DNA of 64,000 nt, taken from the NCBI GenBank assembly GCA_963830745.1, contig CAWHNL010000017.1, positions 115,764 through 179,763 of the forward strand. The letters run 5' to 3'. The notes under the pieces were generated by a model. The model had not been told where the DNA came from. It did no database searches and worked only from the letters and a program-made list of their open reading frames with translations. Shown piece by piece: positions 45,044 through 61,408 of the stretch; the stretch's first letter is position 1, and each line of letters starts with the position of its first letter. Made by a program: the position numbers and the translations under genes. This DNA is from an uncultured Gammaproteobacteria bacterium. GTDB taxonomy: Bacteria; Pseudomonadota; Gammaproteobacteria; Steroidobacterales; Steroidobacteraceae.

Positions 45044-47769
<2,726 letters not shown>

Positions 47770-47867
47770 TCCTATCGTCCGGCTCGCGTGCGCGGCCACA
47801 ATCGCGCAGAATCCGCAGCCTCGCACGCCGACCTGCCAACAAGAGCTGAAGTCCAGGGAGAGCTTCC

Positions 47868-49071
47868 ATGCGAATTCTGATTGCCGACGATTCGTCGACC
47901 CTGCCCGCGTCGGTGCAGGACCTGTTCGGACGCGCGCCGGTCGGCAAGTCTGCGGACAAGACCCCGAGCGTCGAGAGCGTCATCCTCGCTTTCAGCGGCA
48001 GCCCGGCTGCCGCGGCCGCGCCGGCAAAGGGCATGAGCGCCGACAGCGGCGCCGACGGCTGCCCGCGGCCCGAGCCACTGCCACCCTGCCCGCCGTGCAG
48101 CCTGCACGATCAGCCGGAGCTGCTCGCCACGATCCTCGATGCGATCGGCATGGCGCTGCTGAACCGCGGCTGCCTCGATGCCGGCAGCAGATTCGTGATG
48201 GCAGCGCGGGACATCCGGCTCGCGCACTTCGGCAAGAACCATCCGTTCACGGCGGCGAGCTACAACAGCTACTCACGCGTGCTGCGCATCCGCGACGAGC
48301 TGATCGAGGCCGAGAAAGAGGTCGGCAAGGCGATCGTCATCAACCGCAAGGTCTATGGCAGCAACGGCTTGCCGCTGGCGGCGAACATGAACGAGCTCGG
48401 CGCCGTGCGCCTCTACCAGGGCGATTTCAGCGGCGCGCTGAAGGCGGCCGAGCGCGGGCTCGCGATCCTCAAGAAGTGCGGCGTGTCATCGACGACGATC
48501 CGAACACCAGCCGCCTGCTGGACGTCAAAGGGCGCGCGCTGCTCGGCCTCGGCAAGCTCGGCCCGGCGAACACAGCGCTGTCACAGGCCGTGAAGCTCGA
48601 CCAGAAGCAGGTCGGCGTCGACCATCCCAAGTACGCAACCCACCGGGCCAACCTCGCGACCGTGCAGGAAGAGCAGAAAAATCTGGCCGCAGCCGAGCAG
48701 GGTTACTTGGAGGCCGTGCGCGTCTACGAGCAGGTGCTGGGCCGGGTCGGCCATCCCAACCTGATCGATACCTACGCGAATCTCGGGTACGCTGCTGGCG
48801 AAGACCGGCAATTTCGCGACCGCGAAGGACTATCTGTGCAAGGCACTGGGCCTGAACCAGCAACTGCGCGGCGCCGGCCATACGCTGGTCGGCAACGACC
48901 ATGCGAACCTGGGATACCTCTACTACACGACCGGCGACAGAGCCGCGGCGTGCGAGCAGTTCAAGAAGGCGCTGGAAATCTACGCTGGCCAACGTCAAGT
49001 GCAAACGGCTGCCGAAGAAGCATCCCTACATCGCGCAAGCGCAGGTGTGGCTGAAGCGGGCCCAATGCTGA
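47868..49071 (+). CDS. Cys-rich TPR-repeat protein with a receiver-like first strand
   Basis: MRILIADDS start; CPRPEPLPPCPPC; repeats FGKNHPFTAASYN, VGVDHPKYATHRANLA, HPNLIDTYANLG; frameshifts. Confidence 0.8.
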
Positions 49072-52438: not shown

Positions 52439-53329
52439 CTTCTCCAGCGGCCGCACCAACCCTTCCTGCGCCACCGACGCGACCAGCCGCCGCTCGCGAT
52501 CGAAGATCTGCGCGCGCGTGAGGCCGCGGGCGCCGCCCGCGAACGGACTGATCGCGTCGACCAGCACCCAGTCGTCCGCGCGGCACGGCCGATGGAACCA
52601 CATCGCGTGATCGAGGCTCGCCATCATCACCTGGCCCGACATCATCGACACCGTGTGCTGTCAGCACGACGGTGGACGTCAGGAAGTAGTCCGACAGATA
52701 CGCGAGCGCGCACTGCTGCGTCAGCGCGTCGGCCGGCAGCGGCGACGTCGACTTGATCCAGTACAGCCCGCGCGGCGTCTCCGCCTTGCGCAGGAAATAG
52801 TCCTCGGGGCTCACCGGCTTCAGCTCGACGATCGCCTGCTGGGTCGCAATCGCCTGCGCGCTCTTCGGCAGCCGGTCGGCGAACTTCGCCGCCAGCTCGC
52901 GCGTGCTCATCAGCTTGTCCGGGTCCGGCACATCGACGTCGAGCGCGATCTCGTGCTCGAAGCCCTGCTCCTCGCGATGGAACGACAGCTCCATGTGGAA
53001 GATCGGCTTGGCGCGCTGGCGCGCCACGACGCGGCGGGTCGAGAAGCTGCCGCCGTCGCGCGTCAGCTCGACGTCGTAGATCACGGGGATGTCGCTCATG
53101 CCGGCGAGCAGGAAGTAGCCGTGCAGCGAATGCGCCGTGCGGCCCGGCTCGACCGTCAGCGCGGCGGCCTTCAGGCCCTGGCCGAGGATCTGCCCGCCGA
53201 ACAGCGAGCGGTTGTTGTTGATCTGGTTGACCCGGCTGCGGAACAGATTGGTGTCGAGCTGCTCCAGCTCGAGCACTTCGCTGCAGGTGCTGCGGGGCTG
53301 GTGGGGGCAGCGATGCTGGCGGTCGTCAT
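52427..53329 (-). CDS. tesB: Acyl-CoA thioesterase II
   Basis: LELEQLDTNLFR, LFGGQILGQ, HSLHGYFL, RDGGSFSTRRV, LAYLSD, ASLDHAMWFHRP, VASVAQEG. Confidence 0.92.
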
Positions 53330-53502
53330 GCGGCGCGAGTCTAGCAAAGCGATTCGCCACGTAGCTCTGGCCGGCGACTCTGCCGGCCGCTCACCGGCGC
53401 ACTGCCGCGCCTCGCCCTACTTCGCTACTCTCGGCGCGCCATTTTCGCTACGCTGCGCCCACGAAATCGGACCCGAGCATCGGGCTACTTCGCGGAGGGT
53501 GC

Positions 53503-54250
53503 ATGTTCAGCCGACTTGGCGAATCTCATCAAAGGGTTCTTCTCGCTGTTCATCTCCGGCGTCGAGCGCCGCAATCCGGAAGCGCTGCTCGAGCTGGAGC
53601 AGGAAAACCTGCGCAAGCAGGTCGCGAACTTCAACCAGGGCCTCGCGACGCACGCCGGGCTGTGCGAACGCATCATGGGCCAGGTGCGCAAGCTCGAAGC
53701 CGAGCAGAAGGATCTGCGCGCCAAGACCACCGCGCACCTGCGCGCCGGCAACAAGTCGGCCGCCGGCCAGTATGCGCTGCGCCTGCAGACGATCGACGCG
53801 CAGCTGGAAGAGAACCGCAAGCAGCTCGAGCAGGCCGAGGCGACCTACAGGAACCTGGTCAAGGCGCGCGATGTCGCCGTGCAGACCGCGCGGGCGAAGA
53901 TCGAGTCCTGAAGGGCGCGATCAACGACATGCGCATGAACCAGGCGATGGCCGAGATCCACGAAATGGCGTCCGGCATGATCTCCAGCATCGGCGGCGCG
54001 GGCGACACGCTGAACCGCCTGCACGAGATGGTCGAGGAAGAGCGCACCAAGGCTGCCGGCCGCGCGCGCATCGCCAAGGACTCGGTCGACATGAGCGGCG
54101 TCGAGGTGAAGGAAGCCGAGATGACCGCGCTCGCCGACCAGGCGCTGGCGGACTTCGCCGCGCGCGAGGGCATCTCGATCCCGGGCGAAGCGCCGGCGCC
54201 CGCGCCGCGCTCGCTGGGCGCGACGGAAATCGGGCAGCCAGGGCAGCTGA
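53503..54250 (+). CDS. PspA/IM30 (Vipp1, ESCRT-III-like) family protein
   Basis: GGAGG RBS; amphipathic N-helix MFSRLANLIKGFFSLF; NPEALLE motif; long coiled coil with A..HLRAGNKSAAGQYA; LNRLHEMVEEE; about 250 aa across indels. Confidence 0.85.
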
Positions 54251-54251
54251 A

Positions 54252-55918
54252 ATGCCCGCACCGCAGGGTGCGCCGGCGTGGGCGGGCGAGCTCGCGCTCG
54301 CCTACGAAAGCGGCGCGCACGGTCAGTTCATTCTCTACGGCAACGTGCACGACCGCATCGCCGTCGGCGGCCGCCTCGATCAATCTCGCCGGCTACCTGG
54401 AGAACGATCTGCTCGCCGGCTTCCAGGTCGTGCTCGTCGTACGACCTGGGCAACGGACTCACGATCGAGCGCGGCGGCGAGCTCGTCGAGAAGTGGGGCG
54501 GCGCGAACCTGAAGGCGCTGCCGCGCGAGCCGCTGCCGGCGATTCAGTACATCAGCCGCTACCTGCGCTATCTCGGCAACCTGCGTGCGCTCGGCCGCGA
54601 GGTGAAGGAGAACGTCGCGGTGATCCTGCGCGGCGTCGATCGACGTCGTGCCGGCCGACGGCGCCGGCTACGAACACGGCAGCCTCACGAGCGTGCTGCG
54701 CGACTGGGCATCGGAAGCGCCGTTCAGCGACCTGCCCTTCACCAGCATCCTGATCGCGGACAATCTCAACGACATCGAGCCGCAGATCGCGTACAGCGCG
54801 CACGCGTCGCGCATTCGCGTGCCGCTGCCGGATGCGCCGGCGCTGGAGCGCGCGCTCGCCATCCTGCAAGGCGCAGGAGCCGAAAGCGTTCGCCGCAGAC
54901 GCCAACCTGCCGCAGCTCGCCGGCGCGCTCGTCGGCGTCACGGTCGCGGCGCTCGAAAGCCTGGTGAAGGTGCGCGATCACTCCGGCCAGGCGCTCGGCG
55001 TCGCGGATCTGACGCGCATCAAGAAGGACCTGGTCGAGCGCGACTCCGCCGGGCTCGTCGAGTTCATCGAGTCGCAGCGCACGCTCGACGACTACGCACG
55101 GCCAGGAAGCGCTCAAGCAGTGGCTGCGCCAGGACATCGCGCTGTGGCAGCGCCGGCGATCTGAAGGCGCTGCCGATGGGCTACCTGCTGTGCGGCCCGG
55201 TCGGCACCGGCAAGACCTTCCTGGTCGAGTGCCTCGCCGGCGAGGCCGGCGTGCCGGTCGTGAAGCTGAAGAATTTCCGCGACCGCTGGGTCGGCTCGAG
55301 CGAAGGCAACCTGGAGAAGATCTTCCGGCTGGTGCGCGCGCTCGGCCGCTGCATGGTGTTCATCGACGAGGCGGACCAGAGCGCTCGGCCGGCGCGACTC
55401 CGGCAGCGGCGACAGCGGCCTGTCGGGTCGGCTGTATTCGATGATCGCGCAGGAGATGGCGGACACGGCGAATCGCGGCCGCGTGCTGTGGATGCTCGCG
55501 TCGTCGCGCCCGGATCTGATCGAAGTCGACCTGAAGCGTCCGGGACGCGTCGACGTGAAGGTGCCGCTGCTGCCGACCAGCACGCAGGCGGAGAGCGCCG
55601 CGCTCGTCGGCGCGCTCGCGAAACGCTACGGGCTGGCGCTCGACCGACGCGCAACTCGCGACGCTGACGCCGCGCATGCCGACGCTGCTCACGCCGGGCG
55701 CCGCCGAAGCGCTCGTCGTCAAAGCGTATCGCCGCTCGCGCACCGAGAACGTCGGCGCGGACGCCGCGCTCGAAGCGTGCCTCGATCGGCTACCAGAATC
55801 CCGTGCCTGCCGACGTGCTCGAATTCCAGATGCGCATCGCGATCCGCGAGGCGACCGACCTCGCGTTCGTGCCGCCCGCGTTCCACAAGTACGCTGCGCA
55901 GCCGCGCGCCCGACATGA
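54252..55918 (+). CDS. AAA+ ATPase with degenerate N-terminal AAA-like module (Ycf46/CDC48-like)
   Basis: N-terminal FILYGNVHD; C-module GYLLCGPVGTGKT, pore loop DRWVGSSE, VFIDEAD, ASSRPD, LKRPGRVD. Confidence 0.9.
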
Positions 55919-56788
55919 GCGCCAAGCGCTCCTACCTCGCCGCCGCCTTCAACGCGCGTCCCTTCGGCATGCCGGTGCCGCCGAACTGGTTCGGCGTCGC
56001 GGCGTTCGCGCTGCTCGGCGCGTTCGTGAATCCCGGCGCTGTGGCTGATCGGCGCTCGGGCTCGAAGGCCTGTACCTGTGGACGCTCTCGCGCAATCCGC
56101 GCTTTCGCGCGACCGTCGACGCCGAGCAGGGCCAGACGGACTGGCATTCGCGCTACGCGCAGCTGAGCTCGTACCTCGACGCAGGACGCGCGCGACCAGC
56201 AGGCGACGATCGAAGCGCAGGCGAACGAGATCGTGCGATCTGCTGTCGCGCACCGGCGCGACCGAATCGCAGATGAGCGACGTGCGGCAGATGGCGTGGC
56301 TGCACCTGAAGCTGCTCGCCGCGCGCGCGTCGGTGCTGCAGGTCATCGCTTCGGCCGGACGCGAGAGCCGCAACCTCGAAGAGCAGGAGCGGCGTCTCAT
56401 CGACCGGCTCAGTCGCGACGACGTCGGCGACGAGCTCAAGCGCAGCCTCGAGCAGCAGCTCGAAGTGATCCGCTCGCGTCGCAGCGGCCACGCCGATGCG
56501 GAGCGCCGCCGCGAGCTGGTCGAAGCGGAGATCGAACGGCTGCGCCAGCAGGTGTCGCTCGTGCGCGAGCAGGCGCTGCTCGCGACCGACGAGCACAGCG
56601 CCGCGGCGTCGCTCGACGCGTTGTCGGCGTCGCTCAACGAAGCGAATCGCTGGCTGAAGGATCAGCGCGAGTTGTTCGCGGGGCTCGACGGCCTGACCGA
56701 CGAGCCGCCGCCCGCCGACCTGCTGCGCTCGAAGAGCCCGCCGCGCGCGCCGGCAGAAAGTCTCGGAATGACAGAGTCTCGGCAATGA
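55915..56788 (+). CDS. Hypothetical 2-TM + coiled-coil protein
   Basis: ATGA overlap with the ATPase stop; hydrophobic PPNWFGVAAFALLGAFVNP..WLIG.GLEGLYLW; coiled coil ELKRSLEQQLEVIRSRR...ELVEAEIERLRQQVSL. Confidence 0.8.
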
Positions 56789-56802
56789 AGGAGATCGACG
56801 TC

Positions 56803-58514
56803 ATGACTAGCATCGTTGCTCGCGCATCGCATCGCGCGGCTCCGCCGCCGGCAACCTCATCACGCTGCTGCTGCTGGTCGGCATCATCGGCCTCGGCGTG
56901 TACCTGTGGCTCGGCAAGGGCGCGAAGGATGAGCCGACGCGCTGCCGACGCCCGGCAGCACCGCAACGGCGGTCGACAAGGCCGAGCCGGACGGCGATGC
57001 GCCGGCGCCGATCGAGCCCGTCGACGGCACGCCGCCGCTGGAAGCCGCGGCGCACGTACACGCCGAAGGACGGCGTGCTGCAGATCGACATCAGCGAATA
57101 CGCCGGCTACGGCGGCCTGATCGTCGCGAACGGCGGCCTCGAGCCGAACCCCGATTCGTTCTTCGCGAAGGAATACGGCTTCAAGGTCAAGATCTCGATG
57201 AGCGAGAGCGAGACCTGGTCGCCGCTCAACAACGGCCGGCTCGCCGCCACCGCGACGACGACCGACGCGCTCGCCGTGCTCGGCCGCCAGTTCGAAGCAG
57301 TCGTGCCGGTGCAGATCGGCTACTCGCGCGGCGCCGACATGGTCGTCGTCGATCGCGGCATCGCCTCGGTGAACCAGCTCGCGGGCAAGGTGCTCGCCGC
57401 CTCGCAGTTCAACGAGAGCGAGTTCTTCATTCGCTACCTCGCGCAGGAAGCGGGCGTGCCGGTCGTCGTGCTGCGCGACCTCGACTCGCGGCCGGCGTCG
57501 AGCGAGCTCGGCCTGGTGTTCTACGAAGACGCGTTCGTCGCCTGCGACGCCTACGAGCACGAGCTCGGCCGCGCGCAGCCGCGCCTGAACGGCTGCGTCG
57601 GCTGGACGCCGCGCACCGACGAAGTCGTCGAGAAGTCCGGACGGCAAAGCCAAGGTGCTGGTGTCGAACCGCAACCTGCTCGTCATCGCCGACGTGCTCG
57701 CCGTGAACCGCGGCTTCGCCAAGGAGCATCCGGACATGGTGCGCGGCCTCGTGCACGGCATCCTCGAAGGCAACCGGCGGCTGCGCGACCAGCAGGCCGC
57801 GAACATCGGCGTCGTCGCGAAGGCGTTCGGCTGGAGCGAGGACGAGGCGCGCGACGAGCTCGCGCACGTGCACCTCGCGAACCTGCCGGAGAACCGTCGC
57901 GTTCTTCGCCGGCACGATCGACTCGGCCGGCTCGTTCGGCGGCATCTTCCAGTCCTCGGTGCTCGCCTACGGCGAGCTGATCAAGAATCCGACCGACGCC
58001 GCGCGCTTCGCCGACACGCAGCGCGCTCGACGCGCTCGCCAAGAAAGGCCTGTTCGCGGACCAGCGGATCGCGATCGCGCCGATCAAGACGGCGACGCAG
58101 CGCTTCGCTGGAGGGCGATCCGCTGCTGAGCAAGGACATCCGCTTCTTCTTCGAGCCGAACTCCGCGGTGCTCGACAAGGACGCGAAGCAGAACCTCGAC
58201 TACCTCGACACGATCAAGCGCTTCCTGCAGGTCAGCCCCGGCTCGACCGTGGTGCTGCGCGGCCACGTCGACAACGCGCGCGTCAACGAATTTCGCGAGC
58301 AGGGCGGCGAACAGCTGGTCAAGAGCATGGCGCTCAAGGCGATGGAGCTGTCGCGCCAGCGCGCGATCGCGGTGAGCGAGGCGCTGCGCGATCGTTACAA
58401 GGATATCGACGCCTCGCGCATCGAGGACGATCGGCCGCGGCTGGGAAGAACCCGGCCGGCCCGGACAGCGAGCTGAACCGCCGCGTCGAGGTGCAGTGGT
58501 TCACGCTGGAGTGA
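56803..58514 (+). CDS. Membrane-anchored ABC-type substrate-binding (SsuA/NMT1-like) + OmpA-like peptidoglycan-binding fusion
   Basis: AAGGAG RBS; TM LITLLLLVGIIGLGVYLWL; SEYAGYGG..VANGG, SRGADMVV, IADVL; C-terminal FFFEPNSA..LRGHVD..LSRQRAIAV...GRGWEEP...NRRVEV. Confidence 0.85.
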
Positions 58515-58520
58515 AGCGAC

Positions 58521-60151
58521 TCACTCGAGCGCTTCGTCGCGCTTGTCGGGCAAGAACAGGGCACCGATGATCGTCGTCGCGACTGCGACGACGATCGGAT
58601 ACCACAGGCCGTAGTAGATATCGCCGGTCAGCGCGACCAGCGCGAACGACACAGTCGGCAGGAAGCCGCCGAACCAGCCGTTGCCGATGTGATACGGCAA
58701 CGACATCGACGTGTAGCGGATGCGCGCCGGGAACAGCTCGACGAGCCACGCGGCGATCGGTCCGTACACCATCGTCACGTAGATGACGAGCACCGTCGAG
58801 GATCAGCAGCACCATCGCGTGATTGATCTGAGCGGGATCGGCGCTCGCCGGATAAGCCGCTGTCGTGCAACGCCGCCGTCAGCTGCTTGCTGAACGCATC
58901 GCTGCGCTCCTTGAACTCGCGCAGGCGCGAGCGTCGCGGCCGTCGAAGGCGACGGACCGTGACGTCGCCGACGCGCACGACTGGTCGACCGCAGCCGACG
59001 GCTGCCGCCTCGTTCTCGTACGGCACGCCGGCCTTCGCCAGCGCGCTCTTGGCGATGTCGCACGAGCTGGTGAAGCGCGCCTTGCCGATCGGATCGAACT
59101 GGAAGTGGCAGTCGGCCGGATCGGCGACGACGGTGATCGGATTCGTCTGCCGCGCCCGCTCGATCGCCGGGTTCGCGAAATGCGTCAGCGCGCCGAACAG
59201 CGGGAAGTACGTGAGCGCAGCGAGCAGGCAGCCGCCGAGCACGATTTTCTTGCGGCCGATGCGATCGGAGAGCCAGCCGAACACGACGAAGAACGGCGTC
59301 GCGAGCAGCAGCGCGCCGGCGACCAGCAGGTTCGCCGTCTGCGCATCGACCTTCAGCGTCTGCGTGAGGAAGAACAGCGAGTAGAACTGCCCGCCGTACC
59401 ACACCACCGCCTGCCCCGCCGTCGCGCCGAGCAGCGCCAGCAGCACGATCTTCAGATTGGGCCAGCGCGCGAACGAATCGGTGAGCGGCGCGCGCGAGGT
59501 GCGGCCCGCCGCCTTCATCTCGACGAACACCGGCGACTCGCTCAGCTGCAGGCGGATGTAGACGGAGATGCGCCAGCAGGATCAGCGACAGCAGGAACGG
59601 CATGCGCCAGCCCCACGTCTCGAACTCCGGGCCGAGCAGCTGGCGGCAGCCGAGAATGACGAGCAGCGAAAGGAACAGCCCGAGCGTCGCCGTCGTCTGA
59701 ATCCAGCTCGTGTACAGACCGCGCTTGCCCGGCGGCGCGTGCTCGGCGACGTAGCGTCGCGGCGCCGCCGTACTCACCGCCGAGCGCGAGACCCTGCAAG
59801 CAGTCGCAGCGCGACGAGCGCGATCGGCGCCGCGACGCCGATGGACGCGTACGCCGGCAGGATGCCGACCAGCGCCGTCGACACGCCCATGATGACGATC
59901 GTGATCAGGAACGTGTGCTTGCGCCCGACCAGGTCGCCGAGCCGGCCGAACACGATGGCGCCGAACGGCCGGACCGCGAAGCCCGCCGCGAACGCCAGCA
60001 GCGCGAAGATGAACGCCGTCGTCTCGTTGACGCCGGCGAAGAACTGCTTGCTGATGATCGCGGCGAGCGAGCCGTACAGATAGAAGTCGTACCACTCGAA
60101 CACCGTGCCGAGCGACGACGCGAAGATCACCCGGCGGTGTGCGCGATCCAT
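58521..60151 (-). CDS. MFS transporter, metabolite:H+ symporter family
   Basis: ASSLGTVFEWYDF, RPFGAIVFGRLGDLVGRK, QGLALGGEYGGA, WGWRMPF, ELFPARIRYTS. Confidence 0.92.
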
Positions 60152-61408
60152 CACTTCACGATGGCCTGATACGTCAGGTTGCGCGACAGTCCGCGCACGT
60201 CCGGCGAGCCATCGCCGCGATGCTGGATCATGCCGACGACGATCAGGTTGTAGACCGGGTCGATCCAGAACCACGTGCCGGCGTAACCGCCCCAGTAGAA
60301 CGTGCCCTCACCGCCATAGCCGCCCGCTGCGACCGGATCCTCGACGACCGCGAAGTCCAGGCCGAAACCGGTGCCGGCCGACATCGTGCGCGCGCTGGCC
60401 GGCAGCACGTTCGAGCGCATCAGCTGCACACTGAGCGGCGACAGCAGCCGCTGTCCGTCGAGCTCGCCGCCGTTCAACAGCATCTGGCAGAAGCGCATGT
60501 AGTCCATCGCAGTCGAGACCAGACCGCCGCCGCCCGACGGCAGCGCCCGGCGGCTTCGAGAAGTCGGGCACTCCCGGATGCGGCACGAACTTGCGATCCT
60601 TGTCGTACGTGTAGAACGACACGAAGCGATTCATCTTCTCGGGCGGCACGTAGAACGCCGTGTCCTTCATGCCGAGCGGATCGAAGATGCGCTGCTTCAG
60701 GAACTCGGGGAACGGCTGTCCCGACAGCTTCTCGACCAGGTAGCCCTGCACGTCGACCGACACGCTGTAGTGCCAGCGCTCGCCGGGCTGGTGCAGCAGC
60801 GGGATCTTCGCCGAGCTTGTCGATCATCGCCTGCAGCGTCGCGTCGCGGTCGAGCACGTTGACGTCCGTGTACATCTTGTCGACCGCGGTGCTGCCGAAC
60901 ACGCCGTAGGTGAGGCCGCCGGAGTGCGACATCAGCTCGCGCATCGTCATCGCGTGGTCCGGCGCGACCTGCGTGACCGTGCCGTTCTGCGGATTCACTT
61001 TCGCGACCTTGAGGTTCGCGAACTCGGGAATGTGCTTCGACACCGGGTCGTTGAGCTGCCACTTGCCTTCCTCGAACAGCATCATCATCGCGACGCCGGT
61101 GATCGGCTTCGACATCGAGTAGATGCGGAAGATCGAGTCCTTCTGCATCGGCGCGGCGCTCTCCAGGTCGCGCTTGCCGGCGGCCTCGAACTCGACGACC
61201 TTGCCGTCCTTCGCGACCATCGTGACGACGCCGGGGAGCTGGTTGCGGTCGACGAGCGCCTGCATCTCGCTCTTCAGCCGGCCGAGCCGCTGCGTCGACA
61301 TGCCGACGCTCTCGGGCCGCGCGCGTCGGCAGATCGGCCGCAATCGCGGCGCCGGTCAGCAGGACGAGCAGCAGGAAAGAAGCCGAAGGCGTGGCGCGCC
61401 GACTTCAT
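60151..61408 (-). CDS. Serine hydrolase, beta-lactamase-related (family VIII esterase-like), secreted
   Basis: FRIYSMSKP (SxxK), [38 protein letters not shown]. Confidence 0.9.

What the first reader, a model, noticed from the sequence alone, without database searches (positions are those of the whole stretch)
53503..58514. Candidate undescribed ESCRT-III-like envelope system: PspA/IM30 + AAA+ ATPase + TM coiled-coil + SBP-OmpA operon
Seen: four co-directional genes with very tight junctions (TGA 54250 / ATG 54252; ATGA overlap 55915-55918; about 14 bp with an RBS before 56803), bounded by divergent tesB and convergent MFS genes. No pspB, pspC, pspF or ABC permease/ATPase is nearby. Established: PspA/Vipp1 proteins are ESCRT-III homologues that polymerise on stressed membranes; eukaryotic and archaeal ESCRT-III is recycled by the AAA+ ATPase Vps4, whereas the canonical E. 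coli Psp system has no dedicated disassembly ATPase. Inference: a self-contained module in which a peptidoglycan-tethered periplasmic ligand-binding protein and an inner-membrane coiled-coil adaptor recruit the PspA-like polymer, and the ATPase remodels or disassembles it. Comparative surveys have noted PspA-AAA neighbourhoods, so novelty lies in this four-part architecture and its function.
Basis: partly seen in the sequence, partly recalled or inferred. Interest (0 to 1): 0.82.

Follow-up and report, generated by a model that had tools for sequence, protein, structure and literature searches.

The report
PspA membrane-repair operon with own ATPase
A conserved four-gene bacterial operon pairs a PspA (ESCRT-III-type) membrane protein with a two-module AAA+ ATPase that likely recycles it, plus a predicted membrane anchor and a predicted wall-tethered sensor; a 2024 genome survey already noted this gene set, and the broken reading frames in this copy are likely assembly errors.

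Summary
The four genes and their junctions are real. This copy carries 28 single-base indels, likely long-read errors. The same order holds in 63 of 65 assessable related loci.

It is not undescribed. Ravi et al. 2024 (PMC11237479) list PspA + inactive-AAA/AAA + TM-'Snf7' + PBPB-OmpA operons and draw the Vps4 analogy. This scan also met the system at least six times on other DNA. I found no experiment on it.

What I add:
(1) The ATPase is Cdc48/VAT-like with no MIT domain, so it is not a Vps4.
(2) ATPase and PspA co-occur genome-wide, even when unlinked (110 both, 82 neither, of 201 genomes of one phylum), and their trees agree.
(3) These PspAs end in a short [KR]-x-[LMI]-G motif after a flexible linker, seen in 2 of 30 ordinary PspAs. 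It is a candidate ATPase handle.
(4) This clade lacks the ABC permease of the long form, so the binding protein is likely a sensor.
(5) ORF3's Snf7 label could not be confirmed.

Best reading (0.55): convergent, ATP-driven recycling of PspA polymers. Binding is untested.

The parts
53503..54250 (+). PspA/IM30 (bacterial ESCRT-III) gene, about 248 aa; 3 indels in this assembly
   Evidence: Intact orthologue scores 50.5 bits on PF04012; 79 of 79 family members match PF04012; profile aligns over residues 2-227 with Vipp1, E 2e-23
54208..54219 (+). C-terminal tail motif R-S-L-G ([KR]-x-[LMI]-G) after a low-complexity linker; candidate ATPase-docking motif (inferred)
   Evidence: R236, M/L238 and G239 are 95-98% conserved amid columns at 25-85%; counts; present in the window
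54252..55918 (+). Tandem AAA+ ATPase, about 551 aa: degenerate N-terminal module plus intact classical module; 11 indels in this assembly
   Evidence: AlphaFold2 pLDDT 86; Foldseek aligns about 580 columns to both rings of p97/Cdc48/Rix7; best sequence matches VAT and Cdc48
55194..55217 (+). Walker A (GPVGTGKT) of the second module; pore loop W-V-G at 55287-55295, Walker B FIDE at 55359-55370, arginine finger RPGR at 55537-55548
   Evidence: G313, G316, G318, K319, G346, D370, E371, R427, R430 invariant in 79 of 79 rows; residue 344 is W or Y in 79 of 79
55915..56788 (+). ORF3, about 283 aa: N-terminal hydrophobic hairpin (predicted membrane anchor) plus long helical hairpin; homologue of the gene at the 'SIG+TM+Snf7' position of the long operons; 5 indels
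   Evidence: AlphaFold2 pLDDT 91, all helical; hydropathy; HMM hits E 1e-8 to 4e-21 in long operons; 1113 family representatives
56803..58514 (+). ORF4, about 566 aa: single N-terminal membrane anchor, TauA/SsuA-like solute-binding domain, C-terminal OmpA-like peptidoglycan-binding domain; 9 indels
   Evidence: Pfam OmpA; broad profile matches TauA E 4e-15, SsuA E 2e-9 and OmpA_C structures E 6e-25; hydropathy peak at residues 12-38
52440..53330 (-). Flanking tesB acyl-CoA thioesterase, divergent; not part of the system (ends approximate)
   Evidence: different neighbours in other loci
58521..60170 (-). Flanking MFS transporter, convergent; not part of the system (far end approximate)
   Evidence: absent at this position in L046 and L074

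Best explanation
This is a four-gene operon of a PspA, a tandem AAA+ ATPase, a predicted membrane-anchored helical protein and a solute-binding/OmpA fusion, in which the ATPase likely grips the conserved PspA tail and would pull subunits out of membrane-bound PspA polymers, a Vps4-like job done by a Cdc48/VAT-like enzyme. Shown: gene content and order, family assignments, an intact catalytic module, genome-wide co-occurrence and matching trees of PspA and ATPase, the tail motif, and no cognate ABC permease in this clade. Inferred: PspA polymerises on the inner membrane (family knowledge); the ATPase forms a hexamer whose dead ring recognises the tail and whose active ring threads it; ORF3 is the membrane landing site; ORF4 spans the inner membrane, binds the wall and, having lost its transporter, reports a periplasmic ligand or wall-membrane distance to ORF3.
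For: Order conserved in 63 of 65 loci. In 201 genomes of the phylum of G101: ATPase 114, PspA 115, both 110, neither 82. The 4 'ATPase-only' genomes have a PspA-like gene on the ATPase's contig with a wider profile. The pair persists when unlinked (G136: 3.3 Mb apart on one contig). Trees share 13 of 15 and 19 of 22 well-supported splits. In the window's own phylum 54 of 200 genomes have an ordinary PspA and 0 of 200 have this ATPase. Tail motif: 64 of 66 close, 29 of 30 and 11 of 12 distant, 27 of 27 metagenome tails, against 2 of 30 ordinary PspAs and 4.6% of shuffles. Aromatic pore loop and both arginine fingers invariant. This PspA is the only PF04012 match in 5 of 5 genomes. When the operon splits, it splits into PspA+ATPase and ORF3+ORF4 (L028, L030, G285, G288).
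Against: No biochemical evidence exists. Related genomes are not independent, so co-occurrence and tree congruence overstate the case. In the phylum of G102, 2 of 6 ATPase-bearing genomes gave no PspA match and 1 only a weak match without the motif. G146 has a system-type PspA but no ATPase was found (draft genome). Four PspAs beside divergent ATPases lack the motif (G189, G198, G126 end in L-P-E/Q; G202 in K-P-G-I-G). The pattern was written after seeing part of the data, and its end-of-protein branch is loose: it also fires on 29 of 53 ATPase C-termini in one subfamily. A conserved tail could equally bind ORF3 or a chaperone. PspA and Vipp1 elsewhere work without a dedicated AAA+, using Hsp70 or their own weak NTPase (PMC13051332, PMC11746142).
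Confidence: 0.55

Rival explanations
1. The ATPase is a membrane-protein extractase whose client is ORF3, ORF4 or damaged inner-membrane proteins. PspA is a scaffold or adaptor that docks it through the tail but is not itself unfolded.
For: The ATPase is Cdc48/VAT-like, a segregase architecture. The ATPase stop overlaps the ORF3 start by 4 bases in 47 of 64 loci.
Against: When the operon splits, the ATPase stays with PspA, not ORF3. In G285 and G288 ORF3+ORF4 are of the window's clade while PspA+ATPase come from a distant subfamily.
Confidence: 0.2
2. The system serves solute import: PspA and the ATPase assemble or service a TauABC-like importer, and in this clade ORF4 borrows another permease or is decaying.
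For: The long form has permease and ABC ATPase between ORF4 and ORF3 (permease in 32 of 33 metagenome loci in one order). ORF4 resembles TauA/SsuA. Ravi et al. suggest a link to transport.
Against: The cognate permease profile gives 341-423 bits in 5 long-form genomes but at most 228 bits in 25 genomes with the short form, and nothing at E 1e-10 in 3 of them, one a complete genome by its record title. About 20 of 24 of those weaker hits have their own binding-protein gene nearby (read by eye). ORF4 stays 63-90% identical across orders.
Confidence: 0.15
3. It is an anti-phage or contact-defence module that uses PspA to seal or disrupt the membrane.
For: Patchy distribution: close matches in 3 of 100 family relatives and 0 of 4 same-genus genomes.
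Against: PADLOC gives only generic coiled-coil and AAA-domain hits. The neighbours seen are mostly housekeeping genes. It is kept in over half of one phylum's sample.
Confidence: 0.07
4. Separate question about this copy only: the operon is a true pseudogene in this genome.
For: 28 indels in 5 kb; the nearby helicase stretch shows none.
Against: 27 of 28 are single-base insertions; the MFS gene has a like density; rpoB is broken too; the in-frame pieces stay 87-97% identical to intact orthologues; marker completeness is only 61% for a 6.3 Mb assembly.
Confidence: 0.07

Closest known systems
PspA + 'inactive classical AAA + classical AAA' + SIG+TM+Snf7 + SIG+PBPB+OmpA (+ ABC ATPase, permease) operons of Ravi et al. 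2024, mSystems (PMC11237479; example OGG56892.1)
   Same: All four components. Profiles of the four window genes hit operons with the published order PspA, PBPB-OmpA, permease, ABC ATPase, TM protein, double AAA. Same Vps4 analogy.
   Different: Order here is PspA, ATPase, TM protein, PBPB-OmpA, with no permease or ABC ATPase in the operon and no cognate permease in 25 genomes searched. The paper's ABC-free row (Archangium, AKJ06548.1) lacks OmpA and lists no ATPase. In the passages I saw it reports no tail motif or co-occurrence count.
ESCRT-III with Vps4/CdvC (eukaryotes, archaea)
   Same: ESCRT-III-family polymer gene beside a classical-clade AAA+ with an aromatic pore loop; short conserved motif at the end of a flexible tail, placed like a MIM (MIM position recalled).
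   Different: No MIT domain; two AAA modules instead of one; CdvC model 34 bits against CDC48 74.5 bits; the motif is 3-4 residues, not a MIM helix.
Cdc48/p97/VAT, Rix7, Drg1 type II AAA+ unfoldases
   Same: Tandem AAA fold over about 580 columns; second-module motifs including RPGR.
   Different: No N domain; first module has no Walker A or B; only 16-18% identity.
E. coli PspF-PspABC
   Same: PspA effector.
   Different: No PspB, no PspF; no strict sigma-54 consensus upstream in 63 loci; PspF is a transcription activator, not an unfoldase.
Mycobacterial ClgR-PspA-PspM (Rv2744c-Rv2743c)
   Same: PspA with a two-helix membrane anchor bearing a cytoplasmic helical part; Rv2743c is the nearest named Atlas cluster to ORF3 (0.87, 182 shared features, family on 40% of members).
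   Different: A lead only (under 0.9). PF25587 is not among the 25 families shown of 27 for 133 ORF3 members. Ravi et al. found PspM only in Actinobacteria.

Membership tests
PspA/IM30/Vipp1 (bacterial ESCRT-III) | PF04012 above the curated cut-off, full-length helices 0-5 | tested here: met
   50.5 bits against 33.9; 79 of 79 members match; aligns 2-227 to Vipp1, E 2e-23
PspA/IM30/Vipp1 (bacterial ESCRT-III) | Forms rings, rods or carpets on membranes | not testable with these tools
   Needs purified protein
Ravi 2024 PspA / double-AAA system | ATPase with inactive N-terminal and active C-terminal AAA modules | tested here: met
   Model aligns to both rings of p97/Rix7; first module lacks Walker A/B, second has them invariant
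Ravi 2024 PspA / double-AAA system | Membrane-anchored PBPB+OmpA protein | tested here: met
Ravi 2024 PspA / double-AAA system | Homologue of the 'SIG+TM+Snf7' gene | tested here: met
   ORF3 profile hits the gene at that position in long operons.
Ravi 2024 PspA / double-AAA system | ABC ATPase and permease (optional in the paper: 'may occur') | tested here: not met
   Absent from the operon; cognate permease not found in 25 genomes
Snf7/ESCRT-III (for ORF3) | ESCRT-III fold or profile match | tested here: inconclusive
   Long helical hairpin present; hhalign to the operon's PspA profile gives probability 0.3%; fold searches return generic helical bundles
Vps4/CdvC | N-terminal MIT domain | tested here: not met
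   No MIT in Pfam; the N-terminal half is an alpha/beta AAA-like fold
Vps4/CdvC | Single AAA module, best match to Vps4/CdvC | tested here: not met
   Two modules; CDC48 74.5 bits, CdvC 34.1 bits; no chain named Vps4 among the best 60 PDB matches
Vps4/CdvC | ATP-dependent disassembly of ESCRT-III polymers | not testable with these tools
   Needs biochemistry
Cdc48/p97/VAT | N domain plus two nucleotide-binding AAA rings | tested here: not met
   Model starts directly with the first AAA-like module; that module lacks Walker motifs
E. coli-type Psp (pspF-pspABC) | PspB, PspC, PspF and a sigma-54 promoter at the locus | tested here: not met
PspM/Rv2743c (for ORF3) | PF25587 match | tested here: inconclusive
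   Atlas lead 0.87; not among Pfam families shown for 133 members; no match at the locus in G000
OmpA-like peptidoglycan-binding domain (ORF4) | PF00691 with the Asp of G-H-x-D and the Arg of L-S-x-x-R-A (their role in wall binding is recalled) | tested here: met
   PF00691 46 bits against 27.2; R517 invariant and D487 at least 90% conserved in 22 diverse rows

The most novel reading that the evidence does not exclude
Bacteria independently evolved an ESCRT-III/Vps4 analogue: a Cdc48-like hexamer whose dead first ring replaces the MIT domain and reads a [KR]-x-[LMI]-G tail motif on PspA to disassemble its polymers. In this clade a former ABC binding protein became a wall-tethered sensor that signals through ORF3 to trigger the cycle.
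Probability: 0.3. Interest if true: 0.85.

Novelty: new variant of a known kind. Interest (0 to 1): 0.52.

Why it matters
A 2025 review states that a Vps4-like ATPase regulating ESCRT-III 'appears absent in bacteria' (PMC7619361), and a 2026 review calls regulation of PspA/Vipp1 assembly and disassembly unclear (PMC13051332). This compact operon occurs in cultured, harmless bacteria (Steroidobacter, Povalibacter, Pseudoxanthomonas by record titles) and gives a minimal two-protein test: PspA plus ATPase, with a four-residue tail motif and a Walker-B residue to mutate. A positive result would show convergent evolution of ATP-driven ESCRT-III recycling. The gene association itself is in print, which caps the novelty.

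Tried and rejected
Complex prediction, ATPase 1-548 with PspA 206-245: no answer, median 0.26 against a mark of 0.32, controls not folded; no evidence either way.

Profile comparison of the two ATPase halves found no sequence similarity, so the first module's AAA fold rests on the model.

The narrow PspA alignment found no PDB match; the broad one did.

Sequencing-run search gave only small shares, at most 0.18; these are no evidence of habitat or expression. No read-level check of the indels or of expression was obtained.

Promoter and terminator scan: none found. Upstream regions show genus-level motifs only; strict sigma-54 consensus 0 of 63, sigma-E-like 2 of 63.

The ATPase profile found only the centre genome among 151 in the phylum of G103.

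Homologue search with ORF4 returned only close relatives in its top 120 of 3670.

Rejected: Vps4 membership; E. coli-type Psp; 'undescribed'; true pseudogene as the main reading.
Full report
Observation. No gene reads as one frame. Against four close relatives the operon has 28 shared single-base indels, 27 of them insertions; MFS has 9, tesB 3, the serine hydrolase 3 and the helicase stretch 0. rpoB in the same assembly falls in three frames on contig C7. I take these as assembly errors (about 0.9) and used intact orthologues from L010 and L013. The closest loci are titled Steroidobacteraceae or unclassified Gammaproteobacteria.

Conservation. A scan with part of ORF4 confirmed 203 stretches and kept the best 80. 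Of these, 65 have room upstream; 63 carry the four genes in the window's order. L028 and L030 carry them as two divergent pairs, PspA+ATPase and ORF3+ORF4. The 15 cut loci were left out of that count. Record titles span Steroidobacteraceae, Lysobacterales, Dongia, Myxococcota and Desulfatitalea. The system is patchy: close matches in 3 of 100 family relatives, and the ATPase in 0 of 200 genomes sampled from the window's phylum.

ORF1 is a true PspA/IM30 protein and the only PF04012 match in 5 of 5 genomes tested. PspB and PspF were not found in those genomes; PspC lies elsewhere in 3.

ORF2 folds (pLDDT 86) as two AAA-like modules that align over about 580 columns with p97, Cdc48, Rix7 and Drg1. 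The second module has invariant Walker A, Walker B and arginine fingers and an aromatic pore loop in 79 of 79 rows; the first has none of these. Best sequence matches are VAT and Cdc48. There is no MIT domain. It may work like Vps4 but is not one.

ORF3 is all helical (pLDDT 91): a moderately hydrophobic hairpin at about residues 23-59, then a hairpin of two 50-residue helices. Its family is large (1113 representatives) and has no curated model. The published 'Snf7' label could be neither confirmed nor excluded. The nearest named Atlas cluster is Rv2743c/PspM, a lead only.

ORF4 has one strong N-terminal membrane segment, a TauA/SsuA-like binding domain and an OmpA-like domain with the usual Asp and Arg. 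The ligand is unknown.

Long and short forms. Distant homologues in the phylum of G101 (Myxococcota, inferred from the title of L063) and in metagenomes have the order PspA, ORF4, permease, ABC ATPase, ORF3, ATPase (in one search the ABC ATPase was not scored, and 32 of 33 loci with a PspA had the other five in this order). That is the order published by Ravi et al. The long-form permease profile scored 341-423 bits in 5 long-form genomes (4 of them helped build it) and at most 228 bits in 25 short-form genomes, with no hit in 3. About 20 of 24 weaker hits have their own binding-protein gene within 1.5 kb (read by eye). So the short form's binding protein is an orphan, which favours a sensing or tethering role. 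That step is inferred.

PspA and ATPase travel together. In 201 genomes of that phylum: both 110, PspA only 5, ATPase only 4, neither 82. One of the 110, G286, is unpublished and may not be published without its depositors' permission; dropping it changes nothing. With a wider profile all 4 ATPase-only genomes have a PspA-like gene on the ATPase's contig, two of them weak hits. Four of the 5 PspA-only cases are weak hits that look like ordinary PspAs; G146 is a real exception. The pairing holds when the genes are far apart. On 42 of 79 paired rows (14 close, 28 distant) the two trees share 13 of 15 and 19 of 22 strong splits. Shared ancestry inflates both results. Against: in the phylum of G102, 6 of 151 genomes have the ATPase; 3 have a system-type PspA, 1 a weak match and 2 none.

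Tail motif. After helix 5 and a low-complexity linker these PspAs keep [KR]-x-[LMI]-G, or end on [KR]-x-[LMI]. I wrote the pattern. Counts: 64 of 66 close homologues; 29 of 30 top distant ones (13 of 14 among rows first seen afterwards); 11 of 12 from a further subfamily; 27 of 27 distinct metagenome tails, all one subfamily. Controls: 2 of 30 ordinary PspAs, both inside the last helix; 0 of 5 complete PspAs from ATPase-less genomes (G146 has R-S-L-E); 4.6% of shuffles; ORF3 0 of 46, ORF4 0 of 30, permease 0 of 30; but ATPase C-termini 29 of 53 in one subfamily and 5 of 79 in the broad alignment. Four PspAs beside divergent ATPases miss the pattern; three end in L-P-E/Q. The motif is real as conservation; its partner is inferred.

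Mechanism. Most likely (0.55): PspA coats stressed inner membrane, landing on ORF3; the ATPase engages the tail and unfolds subunits to turn the coat over; ORF4 ties the complex to the wall and may sense a periplasmic solute. Rivals: extractase for other clients (0.2), service of an importer (0.15), phage defence (0.07).

Literature. Ravi et al. 2024 (PMC11237479): I saw the abstract, outline, passages including all of section 18, section 9, and supplement passages (Text S2.2, Table S3 rows); I did not see the web app, which may list the four-gene form. Passages only: PMC11188069, PMC7619361, PMC11746142, PMC13051332, bioRxiv 10.64898/2026.10.24.761521. PMC9239133: a term search showed AAA only in its references and no OmpA or Vps4. 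Seven searches found no experimental study of this system and no report of the tail motif; the library lacks most subscription journals.

Verdict. Real and conserved; a transporter-free variant of a system already described in silico and seen before in this scan. Its value lies in making a stated open question testable. Interest 0.52.

Noticed in passing
L111:13834-14379, L114:15123-15575, L118:15004-15459, L122:3890-4345: Some long-form operons add a TerB-like gene after the ATPase (Pfam TerB E 6e-5 for L111) and an unnamed protein of about 215 aa with no Pfam match.
   Followed up: partly
L127, L128 with L166, L167 (G288, G285): ORF3+ORF4 of the window's clade sit apart from a PspA+ATPase pair of a distant subfamily, a mosaic that suggests two exchangeable sub-modules.
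   Followed up: partly
L204:3417-4250, L205:2177-3064, L296:1333-2169: Divergent PspA-like proteins near divergent ATPases end in K-E-(S)-x-L-P-[EQ], a different conserved tip; possible co-variation of tail and ATPase subfamily (3 cases).
   Followed up: partly
L182, L186, L196-L198, L278-L289: In a large subfamily of the phylum of G101, PspA lies about 6-18 kb upstream of the ATPase; in L186 and L198 it is followed by an OmpA-less binding protein and ORF3, and a Ser/Thr kinase-like gene directly precedes the ATPase. This matches the Archangium row of Ravi's Table S3, which does not list the ATPase.
   Followed up: partly
L124, L125 (G186, G171): ORF4, permease and ORF3 are present, but neither the PspA nor the ATPase profile matched these two genomes.
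   Followed up: no
window 53390-53460: Two near-tandem TTCGCTAC elements upstream of the start, kept in Steroidobacteraceae loci (the 8-mer in 17 of 63); possibly promoter elements shared with divergent tesB.
   Followed up: partly
G000:C7:269054-273179 and C22:25-2159: rpoB matches occur on two contigs, both broken by frame changes; C22 may be an assembly duplicate.
   Followed up: no
window 45500-48600: A Ser/Thr kinase with TPR-like repeats and a neighbouring TPR-like protein, both frameshifted; read by eye only.
   Followed up: no
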